From NCBI RefSeq assembly GCF_057098645.1, contig NZ_JBXSPU010000002.1: a stretch of 64,000 nucleotides of DNA. One strand, written 5' to 3'. This DNA comes from a plasmid. Shown one piece after another: positions 1 to 9,000 of this stretch (the first letter of the stretch is position 1; each line of letters starts with the position of its first letter). The position numbers are program-made.

Positions 1-3000
1 AACAACACAGGAACTGACGACAGTGTAATGGATATACGCCAGCTTGTGGCATGGGTTGGAACGTCAATGACGTTAAAGACCATGTCCTTACTGGATACAT
101 TTAAAATTGCTTTTGCGTCGGCTCTGCCTGCACATGCCACTGGTATGGTGTTGGAAGCCATCGACTTAATTCTCGGTGACGACAAGAACCGTACAATGGA
201 GTATTACACTGCAAAAAAGTAGTTATAGATGGGACGAGTTATCAGAAGGCTGAATGCCGTGTGACAGACTTTGCTCATCTTACGTTTTACGGTTTTCTGA
301 GTGCAAACGGAACTGAAACTTTCGTGATTGCACAAGATGGAAATCAATATATAGGTCTGAAGCAGCATAATAATGACTATTCATTTATTTGTTATGAAGT
401 CTGTAACAAAGATATGGAAGCCATGATTAAGGGCCTTGAATCAAAAGGATTCATGTATCAAGGGAGCATTCAATCGGCGGATGTCGAAAATGAATTTCCT
501 GGAATTCTTTTAACAACACTTGAAAAGTAATATTATTAACCCTATCGGGAAATCTTTCCCGACGGGGAGGTTTTCCCATTTCTAAATCTGGAGAAAACCT
601 ATGACTTTCAATACTTCTAAACTTAATAAAGTTTCTGCAAAGGAAATCAGTGAAAACTTTATAAAAGCATATCCTGACTTGCAGGAAGGTGCTGTTATAA
701 CAAAAATTGAAATTAGTGGGTGTCAGGGCTCTCGGCGAACTGATAAAATCGAACTGTCCTATGGCGGTGATGATATAACAGACCAGAAGAGCGTGTCTAA
801 AAGCGAAGTTCGCTGGATAGACATAAAGGCACTGAGTTTCAAAAGCACTATCACTAGTCGAATTTCAACCCTTTGTTCACGGTTGTGCATCCGCTATAGC
901 AATATGTGGATACTGCCAGTTGAAAGGATGGAGGAGTTTCTCGAAGAGGCACAAGAAATCGAACGTGAATTTCAAGCCGGTATCCAGAACGTGGTTGATA
1001 ACTATGACACTCATATTCAGGCTGAGAAAGATCGCAGTCCGTTGATGTCAGATTTAATTGACCAGTTGAAATTGACTAAAGATGATTTTGTTAAATCATT
1101 CCGGTTTAATCTGGCACATTTCATTCCGTTTTCACCGATTAGTGTGGAGGGGGATGAAACGCAGGACTTTTATCAAGAACAACTGATAACTGACTTGGCC
1201 GATGAAGCTATGAAGGTTTATACAAAAATCAGCAAAAATGATAATTTGCGTTCCAGCACGATTGACCGATTAAAGCAGATGCAGGATAAAATAATTAGCT
1301 TCATGTTCATTCATAAAGAGGCTGTTGTTCTTGCAGAAGCTATTAAGCATATCATGAATAATTTACCAAAAGGTGCCATTTCTTCTCCCCGTGATGTTGC
1401 GGTATTAAAGCAGTGGTTCTATTTCATGAGCGATGCGTCAATGCTGAAACGTATTATCTCCGGTGAACAAAAGGTAACCGACTGGCTGGATTCCATAACC
1501 CGGTCATTCAATATCGATTCACAGGTTACAGCGGCTAACTCTCTGAATACTGCTGAGGATGATGTTTTTTCTTCAGCAAATGTTTTCAGAGAAGACCCGG
1601 TTGAAGATCTTGAGAACAAGGCAGTGAATGCACCTGAGCCTGCTGTTGGCCCTGATGAAGATGTTTCTATTCAGGCCAGTGGTAGTAATAGAGCATTTGA
1701 CTGCGAACTCGAATTGACCGGTTGGTAATTTAGTCTTGTAAAAATATCCCCAGATGGGTACTTCACCATCTGGGTGAGTACCCTTTATCAAATAAAGGTA
1801 CTCAAATGAAATTTGATTTAAAATCTTCACCACGCCATATTCAACGCCTGACGAATATAGCCAGCGTGATAAGCGGTATAAATGGGATTTATGTAATTAT
1901 TGACAATAAGGTGAGTACACCTTATTTCAACACCCAAAACAATGTCTGTGTTTTACCTAACGGTGATTATAGCGATGAGAGATTTGTCAAGCTAATTGAA
2001 GGATTCATATGTCATGAAGCAGGACACGGTCGTTATACAGAGCATGAAGTATACCGTGAAGCTTTTGTTGGAGAATTGATCAATGCAGATGGCTTCATCA
2101 GTATTGATGATGACTTGAAGGCTGATTTTCAAAACCTAAAACAAAAGCAAAAAGCATATGCTCGTGCTTGTCGACTAAAAGGACTTATTAATCTTTTTGA
2201 TGATGTCCAGATGGAAGCGAAGACGGGTATTGATTATCAGGAGGCAAAAAAACGCCTCGCGGTGACTTATGCCTTGATGGTTGAAGCTGGGCGTATGACG
2301 GTTGATATTTCTTCAACCCCTCAAAACCCGGTTCAGTTTATTGAAATGTACCTGCTTAATACATTGCGGGTTAACGTTCTCCAACAAGAAGGGCATAAAG
2401 AAACGCTTGACCCATTTTTCGATTATGCAAAGAAAATCCTTGCACCTGTAACTTCAGAAGTCGATGAGATCATTCATCAAGCTCTAAGTTGCAAAAGTAC
2501 GCAAAATTGCGATTCTCTGGCGCGTAAAACTCTGGCTCTTTTAGAGCGTTTAAGGGATGAAGCAAAAGAGAAACAGCAAGAAGAGGAGCAGTCGAAAGAC
2601 CCGCATGACGATACAGATGAATCATCTGGCTCTGAGAATGAACCTGATACCGAACCCAATGGTGATAGCCAGGGTGAAGGGGATGGTGATAAAGAAGGTC
2701 AAGGCGATGATTCTGGTGATGGTAAGGCGCCTGCGGAAGGTAATGGGTTACCGGACCAATCCGGAGGGGATGAACAAAATGCTGAGAACTCTAACGGCGA
2801 ACCTGATGGTGAGTCTGAAGGTGATGAATCGGCGACCCCCGGCTCGGATGATGCTGACTCGACACCTTCCCTAAACGACAGTTCAAATGGAAATTCTTCT
2901 GATGGGGAAAGTAACTTTTCTCCTGAACAGTGGGATATGCTTGCCAAATTGCTGGATGATTTTTTAAACAGTGATGAGGAAAGCGAGGATTTTCATGAGG

Positions 3001-6000: not shown

Positions 6001-9000
6001 ATCTTGCAACACGAGAAGCGGAAGAAATCACCTGGCAGCAAGCTTTTGAAATTTTGTCCAAGCCGGGAAGACCTCCATTAAGAGGTTCACTTGGTAAATT
6101 TGATTATTTAAAACTTGTTATTGATGATCTTCGTGCGCGAGGGTATGCCGATTTCCTTCCAGCATACAACCTTGATGGCCTTCGTCACTTTGCAGTAAAG
6201 GATGAGCGACCATCACTTGTCAGTTATATCGACAATGTCATGGCACTTTGCGCATAAAGATAACACATATTTTTACTACATCCCTGATGGCACCTCCCAT
6301 CGGGGTGGCCCTCAGAGGGCTTTGTTGAATAAATCAGATTTCGGGTAAGTCTCCCCCGTAGCGGGTTGTGTTTTCAGGCAATACGCACGCTTTCAGGCAT
6401 ACCTGCTTTCGTCATTTTGTTCAGCGCTCGTACCAGGGCCATAGCCTCCGCAACCTGACCATCGTAGTCACGCAGCGTCAGTGAACCCCCGAACAGCTGT
6501 TTTACCCGGTACATCGCCGTTTCCGCTATCGAGCGACGGTTGTAATCTGTTGTCCATTTCCACCGCGCATTACTCCCGGTCATTCGCTGATTAGCCACTG
6601 CACGGTTACGGTCTGCATATTCACCGGGCCAGTAGCCCGCACCTTTTCGGGGAGGGATAAGCGCGCTGATTTTCTTACGCCGCAGTTCATCGTGACATAG
6701 CCGGGTATCGTAAGCGCCATCGGCGGCGGCTGACCTGATTTTCCGGTGGGTTTGCCGGATTAACCCGGGGAAGGCCTCTGAGTCCGTAACGTTGTTCAGC
6801 GACAGGTCTGCACAGATGATTTCATGTGTTTTACTGTCAACGGCGAGATGCAGCTTACGCCAGATACGGCGGCGTTCCTGGCCATGCTTTTTGACTTTCC
6901 ACTCGCCTTCACCGAAGACCTTCAGCCCGGTGGAATCAATCACCAGATGTGCGATTTCACCCCGGGTGGGCGTTTTGAAACTGACATTAACCGACTTTGC
7001 CCGCCTGCTGACACAGCTGTAATCCGGGCAGCGTAGCGGAACGTTCATCAGAGAAAAAATGGAATCAATAAAGCCCTGCGCAGCGCGCAGGGTCAGCCTG
7101 AATACGCGTTTAATGACCAGCACAGTCGTGATGGCAAGGTCAGAATAGCGCTGAGGTCTGCCTCGTGAAGAAGGTGTTGCTGACTCATACCAGGCCTGAA
7201 TAGCTTCATCATCCAGCCAGAAAGTTATGGAGCCACGGTTGATGAGGGCTTTATTGTAGGTGGGCCAGTTGGTGATTTTGAACTTTTGCTTTGCCACGGA
7301 ACGGTCTGCGTTGTCGGGAAGATGCGTGATCTGATCCTTCAACTCAGCAAAAGTTCGATTTATTCAACAAAGCCCCCTCAGAGTTGAATCTGGAGGTCTT
7401 ATGAAATTAGCTACAGATCTGGTCAATGCGGTTCTGATAAAGAATGGCATTGTACCAACTTCCATTAATGAGTTGCCTGTAACGTCGCTGGTAAAGCCAT
7501 TGACACAAGTGCATCTCAGCCTGTATCTGAAAACAACGCATTTATCTCAGTTCGTCCCTGACTACGTTGAGTCTCTGAAAGATTGTCCGGTTTCGTATGA
7601 TATCGGCCTTGAACTTCAGCAGTGTATCAACAGTGCTGAATTGCTCTGTGAAGACATGGAGTCACTTGAGTTTATCTCTGTATGGATAGAGCTCTATACG
7701 TGTAATTCAAAGCAACAGCGGTTTGAGAAAAGTAACTTTTCTTTTCGAACTGAAGATATCGAGCTGGCTAAGATGCTGTCTTGCTCGCATGAAATCTTAA
7801 TAAGTCAGGCGGCTTGTTTCTGGCTTTTGTATTTTGAAGATTTCATGAAATATGTTCGTAATAGGCTCTGTGCATTACTCAGACAGGTTTTAATTTTGAT
7901 TGCAGGACTGCGAAATGTATACCTGCAACGGAATGAAGATCAGTTGATTAAGAGAGTTAAGCACGGGAATGAAATGCTGGAGGTGACTCTTAAAGCTGTT
8001 GCACTATGTTCAATAGAAAGGTATCTGAAATCATATGCCTCTTTACGAACAGAAGCGGCGGCTTCTGGGTTTATCAAATGCATTCAGTCTTATATCAGTA
8101 CTGGTTGGAGACATGGCTATATAGTCTGTCAATATTCAAAAAATGGACGGTCTCTTGGTAAGTCATTACCACTTTTTATAAAAGAGACATCTGAGCATAA
8201 TATACAGAAACGTGTCAATCGCCTTATATCTTCCACGATTTCGGGGCGAAATAAAGATTTAGGTCTTTACGATTTCTGATTAACATTACCCATCCGGGGA
8301 TTACATCCCTGATGGGTGTAATCCCATTTTTTATTTAAGTGAGGATTACATGAAAATTATTGAGAAAATCATTAATGCATTTCTGATATCGCGTAAACAT
8401 TCAGTGAAGGTCAGTAATGTTATCTGCTTGAGTGGCACCGACGGTAAATTTACTGGAATATGCTGTGACGCCGATGTTTCATTTGATTTTCTTTATTCGT
8501 ATGCCCCCGCATACAGTTCAACATTTTTAGATATCCCGTTTCCTGGGTTTGAAGACCAGGACATCGCGGATTGTGTTAAATGTCAGTTAGATGTAGTTAA
8601 AAATAAACGGAATCGGTCTTTTTTAATTGACCATATTAGATTTCCAGTTTCCTCAAGGGAAGGATTCACTCTGACACGCGGTGATAGTTACGACGTGACT
8701 GAATGTGAATATAATAAGGAACGATTGCTACATCTGACCCGACAAGGACGTTTTTGTGAAGACTATCTCACGTTCAAGGATGGCCTGAGTTCCTTCTTTT
8801 CATTTGTGAATTTCGAATTACATGAAATAGTGAAGGAAGGTATACGTTTGGCACTTGATGTTTTAAACAAGATTACATCTGATCAACCAGACCGTCTTAT
8901 AAAAGACTTTAAGTATCATGATTGCTTCGGCAGTTATAATGTACAAATATTTTCTAAGGGTCTGCCAGTTGATATCCTTGAAACGATGATTGCACCTGAT

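What the first reader, a model, noticed from the sequence alone, without database searches (positions are those of the whole stretch)
601..6257. Upstream half of the cluster: unknown 375-aa protein, VWA/HExxH/acidic-linker protein, primase-like zinc-ribbon/TOPRIM protein
The 670-aa protein combines an HEAGH motif, an about 150-aa acidic low-complexity linker and a C-terminal VWA domain with a DxSxS MIDAS motif, but no partner AAA ATPase gene (CobS or MoxR type) is evident nearby. The 417-aa protein has a P4-primase-like zinc-ribbon motif followed by TOPRIM-like acidic motifs. With the regulated paralog array downstream this resembles an establishment or anti-defence module carried by a plasmid or other mobile element, but I cannot match the combination to any named system.
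Basis: partly seen in the sequence, partly recalled or inferred. Interest (0 to 1): 0.6.

Follow-up and report, generated by a model that had tools for sequence, protein, structure and literature searches.

The report
Plasmid CobS/CobT-like establishment operon
This stretch is the downstream two-thirds of a conserved operon of IncHI1 (R27-type) resistance plasmids that is switched on together with the transfer genes; it encodes a CobS/CobT-like ATPase-adaptor pair, a DUF3150 protein and a primase-like protein, and a related ATPase with its adjacent gene in IncC plasmids helps incoming plasmid DNA escape restriction by an unknown mechanism.

Summary

The "missing" ATPase is a window-edge artefact. 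Window 1-222 is the C-terminal tail of a 350-aa CobS-like AAA+ gene.

The DNA is 100% identical to IncHI1 plasmids. The genes are R27 ORFs R0203-R0209. R0204 to R0002 form a nine-gene cluster induced 5-23-fold at the conjugation-permissive 25 °C.

The AAA, DUF3150 and VWA genes, and often the Toprim gene, keep this order in IncHI2, IncHI5 and SXT/R391 ICEs and in unrelated plasmid-like contigs. IncC has the first three, with ssb-bet-exo between the ATPase and DUF3150. Usually they adjoin ssb-bet-exo, and one metagenomic protein fuses Exo to the ATPase.

The IncC ATPase homologue, with its neighbour Vcrx090, is an experimentally shown anti-restriction function acting in recipients. R27 has no detectable Vcrx090.

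The VWA protein has full CobT architecture, with an M48-like N-domain that keeps an invariant HExxH…E. DUF3150 has no informative structural relative.

The cluster lies at least 64 kb from the relaxase and mobI, so it is not oriT-adjacent.

Verdict: a known, conserved but mechanistically unsolved establishment or defence-evasion block. It is a new member of a known kind and moderately interesting.

The parts
1..222 (+). C-terminal 74 codons of the CobS-like AAA+ ATPase gene (R27 R0209, 350 aa). The rest lies upstream of the window.
   Evidence: Window pos 1 = L001 19401. The ORF 28-222 translation equals the end of the L001 18570-19622 product. Annotated 'AAA family ATPase'. Walker A GESGSGKT and Walker B LILLDE. 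The family profile matches solved CobS at E 5e-50, plus Midasin, NorQ and CbbQ. It is 28% identical to IncC Vcrx089 (E 9e-26).
261..530 (+). 89-aa ORF (R27 R0208), unknown function. Not conserved in IncHI5. It occupies the position of the Vcrx090-like gene of SXT-type elements but shows no similarity to it.
   Evidence: Induced 20-fold at 25 °C.
601..1728 (+). DUF3150 protein (R27 R0207, 375 aa): a small β-sheet, long helical bundles and an acidic disordered C-terminal tail.
1806..3818 (+). CobT-architecture adaptor (R27 R0206, 670 aa): M48-like zincin N-domain (aa 1-256, nt 1806-2573; HEAGH at nt 2013-2027), acidic disordered linker (aa ~239-377, nt 2520-2936) and C-terminal VWA/MIDAS domain (aa ~453-670, nt 3162-3815).
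3890..4111 (+). 73-aa ORF (R27 R0205), conserved in IncHI2 and IncHI5, unknown function.
   Evidence: No Pfam match.
4145..4211 (+). About 60-nt hairpin (28-nt arms at 4150-4177 and 4181-4208), almost invariant in sequence among IncHI1, IncHI2 and IncHI5, just upstream of the probable Toprim start.
   Evidence: Inverted repeat I2. RNA fold of 4112-4225 gives MFE -62.7 kcal/mol and z -8.1. Alignment and consensus fold: 28 pairs, nearly all invariant. No Rfam match. Present only in the IncHI loci.
4205..5458 (+). Primase-like protein (R27 R0204, 417 aa; the true start is probably Met-8 at 4226): degenerate zinc-ribbon-like region (aa ~61-100), DUF7146 (aa 161-260) and Toprim (aa 283-403).
   Evidence: Pfam. 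PHROG 510 'DNA primase', 4e-19. Invariant C63, P64, G67, G69, F73, E287, G288, E290, D337, D339 and DWND 392-395 in 10 homologues. 30% identical to the SXT-type ICE homologue, E 1e-34.
5472..5495 (+). Terminator-like hairpin with a T-rich tail, 14 nt after the Toprim stop codon. Probable 3' end of the nine-gene operon.
   Evidence: Consistent with the induced cluster ending at R0204 and the 274-bp gap before the next ORF.
5733..6257 (+). 174-aa ORF (R27 R0203), conserved in IncHI2 and IncHI5, unknown function. Not among the cold-induced genes listed.
   Evidence: No family hit.
531..600 (+). Intergenic spacer folding into two stable hairpins, the 3' one containing the Shine-Dalgarno sequence of the DUF3150 gene. 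Equivalent spacers lie at 1729-1805 and 3819-3889.
   Evidence: RNA folds with z -4.8, -5.3 and -3.1, and 0 of 200 shuffles as stable. The same two-hairpin plan occurs in IncHI2 and, with different sequence, in IncHI5.

Best explanation
Window 1-5500 is the distal part of the IncHI1 version of a conserved block of MOBH-type conjugative elements: a CobS-like AAA+ ATPase, DUF3150, a CobT-like VWA protein and, usually, a primase-like Toprim protein. The block is transcribed as one operon together with the transfer genes.

Most likely it works on the newly transferred plasmid in the recipient cell, serving establishment and host-defence evasion.

Proposed mechanism, by analogy with the solved CobS-CobT-CobN chelatase:
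1. The ATPase (R0209) forms a hexameric motor.
2. The 670-aa protein (R0206) is its adaptor. It docks through its M48-like N-domain, and a segment before the VWA domain threads into the motor pore.
3. The adaptor presents a MIDAS site and a probably active zincin (HExxH…E) site to a client.
4. DUF3150 (R0207), always encoded beside the adaptor, is the best candidate for the third subunit in the place of CobN.
5. The target is inferred to be a DNA-bound host complex such as a type I restriction enzyme, because the IncC homologue of the motor, with Vcrx090, abolishes type I restriction in recipients.
6. The Toprim protein (R0204) would prime complementary-strand synthesis on the incoming single strand.

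Shown: gene content, motifs, folds, synteny, co-regulation with the tra genes, and the anti-restriction activity of the IncC homologue. Inferred: physical motor-adaptor-client assembly, protease activity, the target, primase activity, and that R27's copy has the same phenotype.
For: Identity and context:
- 100% identity to IncHI1 plasmids, with the AAA gene immediately upstream.
- R27 ORF mapping confirmed from Table S2 of PMC4853401.
- R0204 to R0002 are induced 5.3-22.9-fold at 25 °C, as are the tra operons (PMC7366339).

Conserved order:
- IncHI2, IncHI5 and an SXT/R391-type ICE have AAA, DUF3150, VWA and Toprim in this order. IncC has AAA, DUF3150 and VWA, with ssb-bet-exo between the ATPase and DUF3150.
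- A TraU/KfrA/Rep3 plasmid-like contig, L014.
- An Alphaproteobacteria MAG, L019.
- The AAA-to-VWA genes are absent as a block from L034, which has ssb, recT and exo followed about 1.1 kb later by Toprim.

Functional link to DNA-end processing: the block adjoins ssb-recT-yqaJ, and L007 has a YqaJ-AAA_5-CbbQ_C fusion protein of 746 aa.

Experimental phenotype of the homologue:
- Δ(vcrx089-090) lowers IncC transfer 25-fold into an R-M+ Vibrio cholerae recipient.
- Restriction by EcoKI and EcoBI rises 424-906-fold after the deletion (PMC11602122).
- By position, the gene after exo (DUF3150) is vcrx094, which is on the same transcript.

Motor-adaptor logic:
- The ATPase profile matches CobS (5e-50), Midasin, NorQ and CbbQ.
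- The VWA profile is collinear with CobT and NorD.
- The N-domain fold is M48-like zincin, with the topology described for CobT_N, which binds CobS.
- Catalytic-type residues are invariant.

Primase-like features.
Against: - No experiment exists on the R27 genes themselves. R27 Δ19 (R0206-R0210) is viable and stably maintained; transfer into restricting recipients was not assayed in that study.
- R27 lacks a detectable Vcrx090 homologue, and the published phenotype was obtained only for the vcrx089-090 pair.
- R27 lacks recognisable Bet and Exo. Its three upstream unknown proteins could not be linked to SSB, RecT or YqaJ.
- The IncC TnSeq reported only vcrx089-093. DUF3150 and VWA were not flagged, although the Cas+/Cas- ratio design would not reveal a restriction-only role.
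- In SXT, single deletions of conserved genes in this region reduced transfer by 10-fold or less between laboratory strains.
- The ATPase is only 28% identical to Vcrx089.
- The cluster is not in the early-entering region near oriT.
- Genuine CobT has the same M48-like fold without any reported peptidase role, so the HExxH site could be structural.
- PADLOC and NCBIfam give no functional assignment.
Confidence: 0.5

Rival explanations
1. The module is a donor-side accessory of conjugative DNA processing or replication. The AAA-VWA pair would remodel the relaxosome, coupling protein or T4SS components, and the Toprim protein would prime replacement-strand or rolling-circle replication in the donor. 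It would have no role against host defences.
For: The genes directly follow the Tra2 genes trhN and trhI and are co-induced with the tra operons at 25 °C. In Azotobacter elements the Toprim gene lies just upstream of a traF homologue. Deleting s060-s073 in SXT lowers transfer more than 100-fold.
Against: The SXT defect is almost entirely due to s063; the conserved neighbours give 10-fold or less. The IncC ATPase pair is complemented from the recipient and not from the donor, and it is dispensable when the recipient lacks hsdR.
Confidence: 0.2
2. The block is an accessory of the single-strand-annealing recombination system (SSB, Bet/RecT, Exo/YqaJ). The motor-adaptor pair would load, recycle or regulate the exonuclease or annealase on broken plasmid DNA. 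The IncHI version would be a remnant, or would work with unrecognised recombination proteins encoded upstream.
For: The block is adjacent to ssb-recT-yqaJ in SXT, IncC, L005, L007, L014 and L019. L007 has a YqaJ-AAA fusion. In IncC the Δ(vcrx089-090) phenotype seemed partly dependent on ssb, bet and exo.
Against: Bet and Exo alone are reported as sufficient for recombineering (abstract of bioRxiv 10.1101/130088, listed). R27, IncHI2 and IncHI5 keep the block without detectable Bet or Exo. The anti-restriction effect of vcrx089-090 is seen without a CRISPR target.
Confidence: 0.15
3. It is an anti-phage or anti-plasmid defence system carried by the plasmid: an AAA+/VWA sensor-effector pair with a Toprim nuclease.
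For: AAA+/VWA pairs and Toprim nucleases occur in some conflict systems (general knowledge). There are weak P-loop-level PADLOC hits to IetA and DolB.
Against: No PADLOC family matches beyond the P-loop region, and there is nothing for DUF3150, VWA or Toprim. Expression is tied to conjugation. It is a core backbone block of conjugative elements rather than a variable island.
Confidence: 0.05
4. It is a real cobalt chelatase (CobS/CobT), that is, a vitamin B12 auxiliary metabolic function carried by the plasmid.
For: The best solved relatives are CobS and CobT. Phage cobST pairs are commonly interpreted this way, and one preprint lists such plasmid genes as vitamin genes.
Against: NCBIfam scores are far below the equivalog cut-offs: 35.6 against 558.55 for CobS, and 27.8 against 779.45 for the chelatase model. 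There is no CobN or other cob gene in any neighbourhood examined. The invariant partners are instead DUF3150, recombination genes and a primase-like gene. The IncC homologue has an anti-restriction phenotype.
Confidence: 0.02

Closest known systems
IncC 'hde' host-defence-evasion operon and the AntiDefenseFinder system 'vcrx089_090' (Roy et al. 2020, PMC7498323; PMC11602122; PMC11724313)
   Same: Homologous CbbQ_C/AAA_5 ATPase (28% identity, E 9e-26). The DUF3150 and CobT-like VWA genes are in the same operon-sized block. The carrier is a MOBH/MPF_F conjugative element, and expression is coupled to transfer.
   Different: R27 has no detectable Vcrx090 and no recognisable ssb, bet or exo. It carries three unrelated unknown genes upstream and a Toprim gene downstream. 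Gene order differs: in IncC the ATPase precedes ssb-bet-exo. No phenotype is known for R27.
SXT/R391 ICE conserved core genes between exo and traF (Wozniak et al. 2009, PMC2791158)
   Same: Same four families in the same order: AAA 30%, DUF3150 20%, VWA 22% and Toprim 30% identity. Both belong to a transfer-activated operon (SetCD in SXT, the temperature/TrhR-TrhY circuit in R27).
   Different: SXT interposes a Vcrx090-like 259-aa gene, a 146-aa gene, RadC and a 113-aa gene, and it has Bet and Exo upstream. The SXT Toprim keeps a CxxH…CxxC zinc ribbon.
Aerobic cobaltochelatase CobS-CobT(-CobN) (cryo-EM preprint 10.64898/2026.07.21.739949)
   Same: The motor is full-length CobS-like. The adaptor has the same three-part plan: M48C-like N-domain, disordered acidic linker and VWA/MIDAS C-domain.
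   Different: There is no CobN and no cobalamin context. Scores are far below the equivalog thresholds. The plasmid family keeps an invariant HExxH…E signature. The constant third gene is DUF3150.
Other AAA_5/MoxR-type motor and VWA adaptor pairs: NorQ-NorD, CbbQ-CbbO, Midasin/Rea1
   Same: An AAA_5 ATPase paired with a MIDAS-bearing partner that engages a client protein (profile hits).
   Different: Those pairs remodel metabolic enzymes or pre-ribosomes. None is linked to DNA transfer, and none has DUF3150 or a zincin motif reported.
Phage cobS/cobT-like pairs (PHROG 249, and PHROGs 459, 1576 and 17276)
   Same: The ATPase matches PHROG 249 (2e-33). The VWA protein matches PHROG 1576 (1e-24), 17276 'CobT' and 459 'peptidase' over the HExxH region. 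444 phage records carry an ATPase relative.
   Different: DUF3150 is absent from PHROGs. Among the phage records it was found only in AB571791.1, a 127.7-kb Salmonella record whose match is 100% identical to the IncC plasmid protein and which is probably a plasmid. The phage pairs are interpreted as B12 metabolic genes without experimental test.
Plasmid and phage Toprim primases (P4 α primase domain, RP4 TraC, ColIb-P9 Sog; PHROG 510)
   Same: Zinc-ribbon-like region plus Toprim with E…DxD. The 'EGIENA' sequence resembles the EGYATA motif of these primases (the motif is recalled from Strack et al. 1992 and was not re-checked here). PHROG 510 hit at 4e-19.
   Different: There is no helicase or other C-terminal domain. 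The zinc ligands are degenerate in R27. No primase activity has been shown, and no solved relative is detectable by sequence.
ArdC (R388) and SprT/Wss1-type zincin proteases
   Different: The similarity is only at fold level. There is no ArdC N-terminal ssDNA-binding domain, and the closest folds are M48 and minigluzincin.

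Membership tests
vcrx089_090 anti-restriction system (AntiDefenseFinder) / IncC hde operon | Vcrx089-type CbbQ_C + AAA_5 ATPase | tested here: met
   R27 ATPase against IncC WP_000085160: 28% identity over 284 aa, E 9e-26. Relatives carry PF07728 and PF08406. The gene lies mostly upstream of the window.
vcrx089_090 anti-restriction system (AntiDefenseFinder) / IncC hde operon | Adjacent Vcrx090-family gene | tested here: not met
   An HMM built from four Vcrx090-like 'mid' proteins (three true members; the fourth, a truncated L009 ORF, later proved YqaJ-like) and BLAST with those sequences and with IncC Vcrx090 find nothing in the R27 or IncHI5 operon proteins. 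An unrelated 89-aa ORF sits after the ATPase.
vcrx089_090 anti-restriction system (AntiDefenseFinder) / IncC hde operon | Protects incoming DNA from type I restriction when present in the recipient | not testable with these tools
   Known only for IncC pVCR94 and pKAZ3.
Cobaltochelatase CobS/CobT | CobS-type AAA+ motor and CobT-type adaptor (M48C-like N-domain, linker, VWA/MIDAS) | tested here: met
   Profile against the PDB: CobS 5e-50 over the full length; CobT 9e-11, collinear. The N-domain fold and topology match.
Cobaltochelatase CobS/CobT | Equivalog-level similarity and a CobN/cobalamin gene context | tested here: not met
   TIGR01650 scores 35.6 bits against a cut-off of 558.55, and TIGR02442 scores 27.8 against 779.45. 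No cobN or other cob gene occurs in any locus examined.
VWA domain with MIDAS | DxSxS … T … D metal-site residues in a VWA fold | tested here: met
   D506, S508, S510, T604 and D605 are invariant in 11 homologues. Pfam VWA, VWA_CoxE and VWA_2 hits.
Zincin (gluzincin, M48-like) metallopeptidase | HExxH on an active-site helix plus a downstream acidic third ligand, in a zincin fold | tested here: met
Zincin (gluzincin, M48-like) metallopeptidase | Zinc binding and peptidase activity | not testable with these tools
   Genuine CobT_N has the same fold with no peptidase role reported.
Toprim (DnaG/P4α/TraC-type) primase | Toprim catalytic glutamate and DxD | tested here: met
   E287, D337 and D339 are invariant in 10 homologues. 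Toprim_3 at 3e-10.
Toprim (DnaG/P4α/TraC-type) primase | Four-ligand zinc ribbon N-terminal to the catalytic core | tested here: inconclusive
   Only C63 is invariant. R27 has CPFSG…GCAIH and SXT has CPVHG…CNTCG. There is no Pfam Prim_Zn_Ribbon hit, but PHROG 510 aligns from aa 61.
Toprim (DnaG/P4α/TraC-type) primase | Primer synthesis on ssDNA | not testable with these tools
   No solved or characterised close relative was found.
Leading-region anti-defence island of conjugative plasmids | Location within the first-transferred region next to oriT | tested here: not met
   The R27 cluster lies at 172.6-180.4 kb. The MobH relaxase is at 103.9-106.9 kb and mobI at 107.7-108.1 kb. oriT itself was not mapped here.
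Known anti-phage defence systems (PADLOC-DB v2) | Match to a defence-system protein model | tested here: not met
   The ATPase gives only P-loop-level hits, and there is nothing credible for the other proteins.

The most novel reading that the evidence does not exclude
The CobS-like motor, the CobT-like adaptor with a live zincin protease site, and DUF3150 form a three-part machine. DUF3150 would replace CobN as the executor. The machine would be made with the transfer apparatus, and it would pull off or cleave host proteins bound to the incoming plasmid DNA, type I restriction complexes above all. That would be a plasmid-encoded, ATP-driven 'restriction alleviation' device. It would also explain the unexplained Vcrx089-090 phenotype and the widespread phage cobST pairs. 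In IncHI plasmids the invariant 60-nt hairpin before the Toprim gene would be the single-strand initiation site, or a regulatory site, used by the adjacent primase-like protein.
Probability: 0.15. Interest if true: 0.8.

Novelty: new member of a known kind. Interest (0 to 1): 0.45.

Why it matters
IncHI1, IncHI2, IncC and SXT/R391 elements are major carriers of multidrug resistance, including tet(X4), mcr and typhoid MDR determinants.

All of them keep this AAA-DUF3150-VWA block, and most examined here except IncC also keep the Toprim gene beside it. One component (the ATPase, with Vcrx090) raises plasmid survival against type I restriction by 400-900-fold. The mechanism is unknown, and the annotation tools used in PMC11602122 did not flag the operon as anti-defence.

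Two observations here turn that phenotype into a testable mechanism:
- The ATPase is a CobS-type motor whose CobT-type adaptor, with a conserved protease signature, sits in the same operon.
- DUF3150 is the adaptor's constant companion.

This also extends the question to IncHI plasmids, where the genes are transfer-induced but unstudied. It may further prompt a second look at the 'B12 metabolism' reading of phage cobST genes.

Tried and rejected
1. **WGR-like small proteins.** I thought the 73-aa and 89-aa proteins and the Vcrx090-like proteins looked WGR-like by eye. Pfam on nine sequences gave no WGR hit, only RadC for one SXT protein. Dropped.

2. **R27's three upstream unknowns as SSAP, SSB or Exo.** For the 291-, 125- and 328-aa proteins, hhalign probabilities were below 1%. 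Pfam gave only sub-threshold SSB/OB hits for the 125-aa protein (E 0.3) and nothing for the 328-aa protein. Unresolved.

3. **SXT s073 as the Toprim gene.** I first mapped the 'most divergent, dispensable' s073 to the Toprim gene. Across SXT-like ICEs the Toprim is 96-98% identical, while the 234-aa gene after it is about 85% identical. s073 is therefore probably that 234-aa gene, and I did not use the s073 data for the Toprim.

4. **The search for related loci with the DUF3150 alignment.** It failed because the alignment was too divergent. I anchored on Toprim instead, which biases that sample towards Toprim-containing loci.

6. **Word-indexed homologue search with the N-domain profile.** It returned only fragments of close relatives.

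7. **Toprim against solved structures.** Neither the single sequence nor the profile found anything.

8. **Rfam on 1-7500.** No credible match.

9. **Sigma-70 promoter scan.** No enrichment: 12 sites found against 13.9 expected.

Full report

Yes for the genes, no for the "missing" ATPase.

All five ORFs are present on the + strand at the stated coordinates:
- The 375-aa protein is a DUF3150 family member (PF11348, E 2.4e-22).
- The 670-aa protein has C-terminal VWA matches, HEAGH at residues 70-74 and DISGS at 506-510. A linker of about 140 residues (aa ~239-377) is very acidic: D+E make up 33% and the net charge is -44 over aa 251-400.
- The 417-aa protein has DUF7146 plus Toprim_3 and matches PHROG 510 "DNA primase" from residue 61 to 399.

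The window starts at position 19401 of locus L001. That position is inside a 350-aa "AAA family ATPase" gene. The gene's last 74 codons are window 1-222, and it ends 379 bp before the DUF3150 start.

**2. What the DNA is**

Region 601-6257 is 100% identical to many ~190-kb IncHI1 plasmids, for example pYPE10-190k-tetX4 (typed as MOBH relaxase, MPF_F). Its proteins are identical or nearly so to those of the prototype R27.

The supplementary table of the R27 deletion study fixes the classical ORF names:

| R27 ORF | Gene product |
|---|---|
| R0203 | 174 aa |
| R0204 | Toprim |
| R0205 | 73 aa |
| R0206 | VWA |
| R0207 | DUF3150 |
| R0208 | 89 aa |
| R0209 | ATPase, already noted as NirQ-like |
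| R0210 | 328 aa |

Upstream lie R0001 and R0002, then trhI, trhN and the rest of the Tra2 region.

[quoted passage not shown] It is induced 5.3- to 22.9-fold at 25 °C, the temperature at which R27 conjugates. A terminator-like hairpin 14 nt after the Toprim stop fits R0204 being the last gene of that operon.

Deletion of R0206-R0210 (Δ19) was obtained and did not reduce plasmid stability. Deletion of R0199-R0205 (Δ18) could not be obtained despite repeated attempts.

**3. Conservation**

The same families recur, mostly in the same order:
- IncHI2, with DUF3150 about 79% identical.
- IncHI5, about 40% identical, where every operon gene except the 89-aa ORF has a counterpart.
- An SXT/R391-type ICE: AAA 30%, DUF3150 20%, VWA 22%, Toprim 30% identity.
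- IncC plasmids, which have AAA, DUF3150 and VWA.

An exhaustive profile search finds 1,368 DUF3150 clusters at 50% identity. I sampled distant members:
- L005, L007, L014 and L019 show SSB/RecT/YqaJ, then AAA_5-CbbQ_C, a ~270-aa Vcrx090-like gene and DUF3150. The CobT-like VWA gene follows wherever the contig extends that far.
- L009, L011 and L016 show DUF3150 followed by VWA.
- L014 (a TraU/KfrA/Rep3 plasmid-like contig) and L019 (an Alphaproteobacteria MAG) also carry the DUF7146/Toprim gene downstream.
- In L007 the YqaJ exonuclease and the ATPase are fused into one 746-aa protein.
- One SXT-like element (L034) has ssb, recT, exo and Toprim but lacks the AAA-to-VWA segment as a block. Four Toprim homologues occur without the block.

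So AAA, (Vcrx090-like), DUF3150 and VWA form a unit, and Toprim is a frequent but separable neighbour. This sample is small and partly anchored on Toprim.

DUF3150 is absent from PHROGs. Among the phage records it was found only in AB571791.1, a 127.7-kb Salmonella record whose match is 100% identical to the IncC plasmid protein, so probably a plasmid. The ATPase, in contrast, has relatives in 444 phage records, annotated as cyanophage cobS and the like.

**4. What the proteins are**

*ATPase.* The family profile matches solved CobS over its full length (E 5e-50). It then matches the six AAA modules of Midasin, and NorQ and CbbQ. In each of these systems the ATPase works through a VWA/MIDAS-bearing partner or domain.

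*VWA protein.* The family profile is collinear with solved CobT (acidic linker and VWA in the same positions; E 9e-11) and with NorD.

*N-terminal domain of the VWA protein.*
- The 256-residue model is very confident (pLDDT 93.3, pTM 0.89).
- A 2026 cryo-EM preprint describes CobT as CobT_N, a ~90-residue disordered linker and a VWA/MIDAS C-domain. CobT_N is [quoted passage not shown], resembling peptidase M48C. It docks on the CobS small subdomain. A "shaft" before the VWA domain inserts into the CobS ring. CobN sits between the two CobT domains.
- My model has the same order of elements: helix 9-23, strands at 29-33, 40-42 and 47-51, then eight helices.
- The 670-aa protein is therefore a complete CobT-architecture adaptor.
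- In this plasmid family H70, E71, H74, D133 and E137 are invariant across 12 sequences that are otherwise 19-25% identical to R27. The MIDAS residues are likewise invariant across the 11 full-length sequences. I could not establish whether genuine CobT keeps these residues.

*DUF3150.* The model is confident (pLDDT 83.9). It shows a small β-sheet, long helical bundles and an acidic disordered tail. It has no informative solved relative.

*Toprim protein.* It keeps the catalytic E…DxD. Its "EGIENA" sequence is reminiscent of the EGYATA motif of P4 α, TraC and Sog primases; that motif is recalled from the literature and was not re-verified here. Its zinc ribbon is degenerate in R27 but canonical (CxxH…CxxC) in SXT.

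**5. Function**

No function is known for the R27 genes. The decisive lead comes from IncC plasmids:
- vcrx089 is the CbbQ_C/AAA_5 ATPase. The paper gives it as 53% identical to SXT/R391 Orf70, and my comparison gives 59% to the ICE copy and 28% to R27.
- With the adjacent vcrx090 it is required for efficient transfer into a type I R-M-proficient Vibrio cholerae recipient.
- The defect is rescued by expressing the genes in the recipient, not in the donor.
- The defect disappears in a ΔhsdR recipient.
- An independent study found 424- and 906-fold higher restriction by EcoBI and EcoKI after the same deletion.
- AntiDefenseFinder lists "vcrx089_090" as a two-gene system.
- These genes share an operon with ssb, bet and exo, which repair Cas3- and restriction-induced breaks. 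The operon's RT-PCR anchor was vcrx094, which by position is the DUF3150 gene.
- The DUF3150 and VWA genes themselves were not reported on. The TnSeq read-out was a Cas+/Cas- ratio, so it would not reveal a restriction-only role.

In SXT, single deletions of several conserved genes in this region cost 10-fold or less in laboratory matings.

**6. Most likely mechanism (inference)**

1. A CobS-like hexameric motor (R0209) is coupled to a CobT-like adaptor (R0206).
2. The adaptor offers a MIDAS site and a probably functional zincin site to a client.
3. DUF3150 (R0207), the invariant neighbour, is the best candidate for the third subunit in the place CobN occupies in the chelatase.
4. The complex is made when transfer is induced. 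It acts on DNA-bound host proteins that threaten the incoming plasmid, with type I restriction enzymes the only experimentally implicated target.
5. The Toprim protein would prime complementary-strand synthesis.

I put about 0.5 on the general reading, that this is an establishment or defence-evasion function acting in the recipient. I put about 0.15 on the specific machine.

Rivals:
- A donor-side DNA-processing role (0.2).
- An accessory of the Bet/Exo recombination system, supported by the Exo-AAA fusion (0.15).
- A defence system (0.05).
- A true cobalt chelatase (0.02). This is contradicted by sub-threshold scores, the absence of CobN and the gene context.

**7. Points against over-reading**

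- R27 lacks a detectable Vcrx090 and recognisable Bet and Exo.
- The published phenotype is for the vcrx089-090 pair only.
- The ATPase is only 28% identical to Vcrx089.
- The cluster is at least 64 kb from the MobH relaxase and mobI, so the "leading region next to oriT" idea is not supported.
- The M48-like fold is ancestral to CobT, where no protease role is reported.

**8. Additional observation made here**

Every intergenic spacer of the operon folds into two unusually stable hairpins (z -3.1 to -8.1). The 3' hairpin contains the next gene's Shine-Dalgarno sequence. The plan is kept in IncHI2 and, with different sequences, in IncHI5.

Upstream of the Toprim gene a ~60-nt hairpin (window 4145-4211) is almost invariant in sequence among IncHI1, IncHI2 and IncHI5, although the flanking proteins are only about 40% identical. 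It has no Rfam match and occurs only in the IncHI loci.

In IncHI2 and IncHI5 the annotated Toprim start lies just after this hairpin and corresponds to Met-8 of the R27 ORF. The true start is therefore probably at 4226.

Roy et al. also mention an RBS-sequestering structure before vcrx089.

**9. Verdict**

This is a real, conserved, catalogued but functionally unsolved backbone operon.
- It is not categorically new. It is the IncHI member of the block whose IncC ATPase (with Vcrx090, absent from R27) is a known anti-restriction factor.
The "no ATPase" and "leading region" points do not.
- Interest is moderate (0.45). The mechanism of a CobS/CobT-type motor-adaptor in defence evasion is an open and now directly testable question in clinically dominant resistance plasmids.

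Noticed in passing
window 531-600, 1729-1805, 3819-3889 (and L001 upstream spacers): Each intergenic spacer of the operon folds into two stable hairpins (z -3.1 to -5.3, and 0 of 200 shuffles as stable). The 3' hairpin contains the Shine-Dalgarno sequence of the next gene. The plan is conserved in IncHI2 and, with different sequence, in IncHI5. This suggests translational control or RNA processing.
   Followed up: partly
window 4145-4211: A ~60-nt hairpin (MFE -62.7 kcal/mol for 4112-4225, z -8.1), almost invariant in sequence among IncHI1, IncHI2 and IncHI5. It has no Rfam match, occurs once in the window and is found only in the IncHI loci. It could be an operator, an RNA element or a single-strand initiation site next to the primase-like gene.
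   Followed up: partly
window 4205-4228: The annotated Toprim start (ATG at 4205) lies inside the hairpin stem. IncHI2 and IncHI5 start at the equivalent of Met-8 (ATG at 4226), which is preceded by AAGAGAGAA. The R27-type ORF is probably 410 aa, not 417 aa.
   Followed up: partly
window 6311-7381: An IS5-family element that looks IS903-like: 40-nt terminal inverted repeats 78% complementary, and a 322-aa transposase at 6374-7342 on the minus strand. It is inserted between the 174-aa ORF and the first gene of the paralog array, and is absent at this site in R27 and pYPE10.
   Followed up: partly
window 7401-12424: Five consecutive ORFs of 292-322 aa form the downstream paralog array (R27 R0202 to R0199 and beyond). 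The last two share a 56-nt leader/start region at 71% identity (10344-10399 and 11456-11511). R0200 is induced 3.6-fold at 25 °C.
   Followed up: no
R27 168,601-175,050 (= window ~3880-10,400, allowing for the IS): Published R27 deletion 18 (four paralogs, the 174-aa ORF, Toprim and the 73-aa ORF) could not be obtained despite repeated attempts, unlike the 18 other deletions. Something here may be essential or toxic to remove.
   Followed up: no
L007 2072-4312: A metagenomic 746-aa protein fuses a YqaJ (λ Exo-like) exonuclease to the AAA_5/CbbQ_C ATPase through a long low-complexity linker. This is a Rosetta-stone link between the recombination genes and the motor.
   Followed up: partly
L034 6170-10999: An SXT-like element in Aestuariibacter has ssb, recT, a split exo and then Toprim. 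The AAA, Vcrx090-like, DUF3150 and VWA genes are missing as one block.
   Followed up: no
L001 16152-18510 (upstream of the window): Three conserved unknown genes (291, 125 and 328 aa; R0002, R0001 and R0210) head the operon. They occupy the position that ssb-bet-exo holds in the SXT-type and metagenomic loci. The 125-aa protein has sub-threshold SSB/OB-fold hits (E ~0.3). R0210 is the most strongly induced gene (22.9-fold).
   Followed up: partly
L004 17255-17959 and L020-L031: The 234-aa gene after the SXT Toprim gene is only about 85% identical across SXT/R391-like ICEs, whereas the Toprim is 96-98% identical. It is probably the fast-evolving 's073' of the literature.
   Followed up: partly
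L004 15129-15997: One of the small proteins between the VWA and Toprim genes of the SXT-type ICE is a RadC-like JAB domain protein (PF04002, E 2.8e-46).
   Followed up: no
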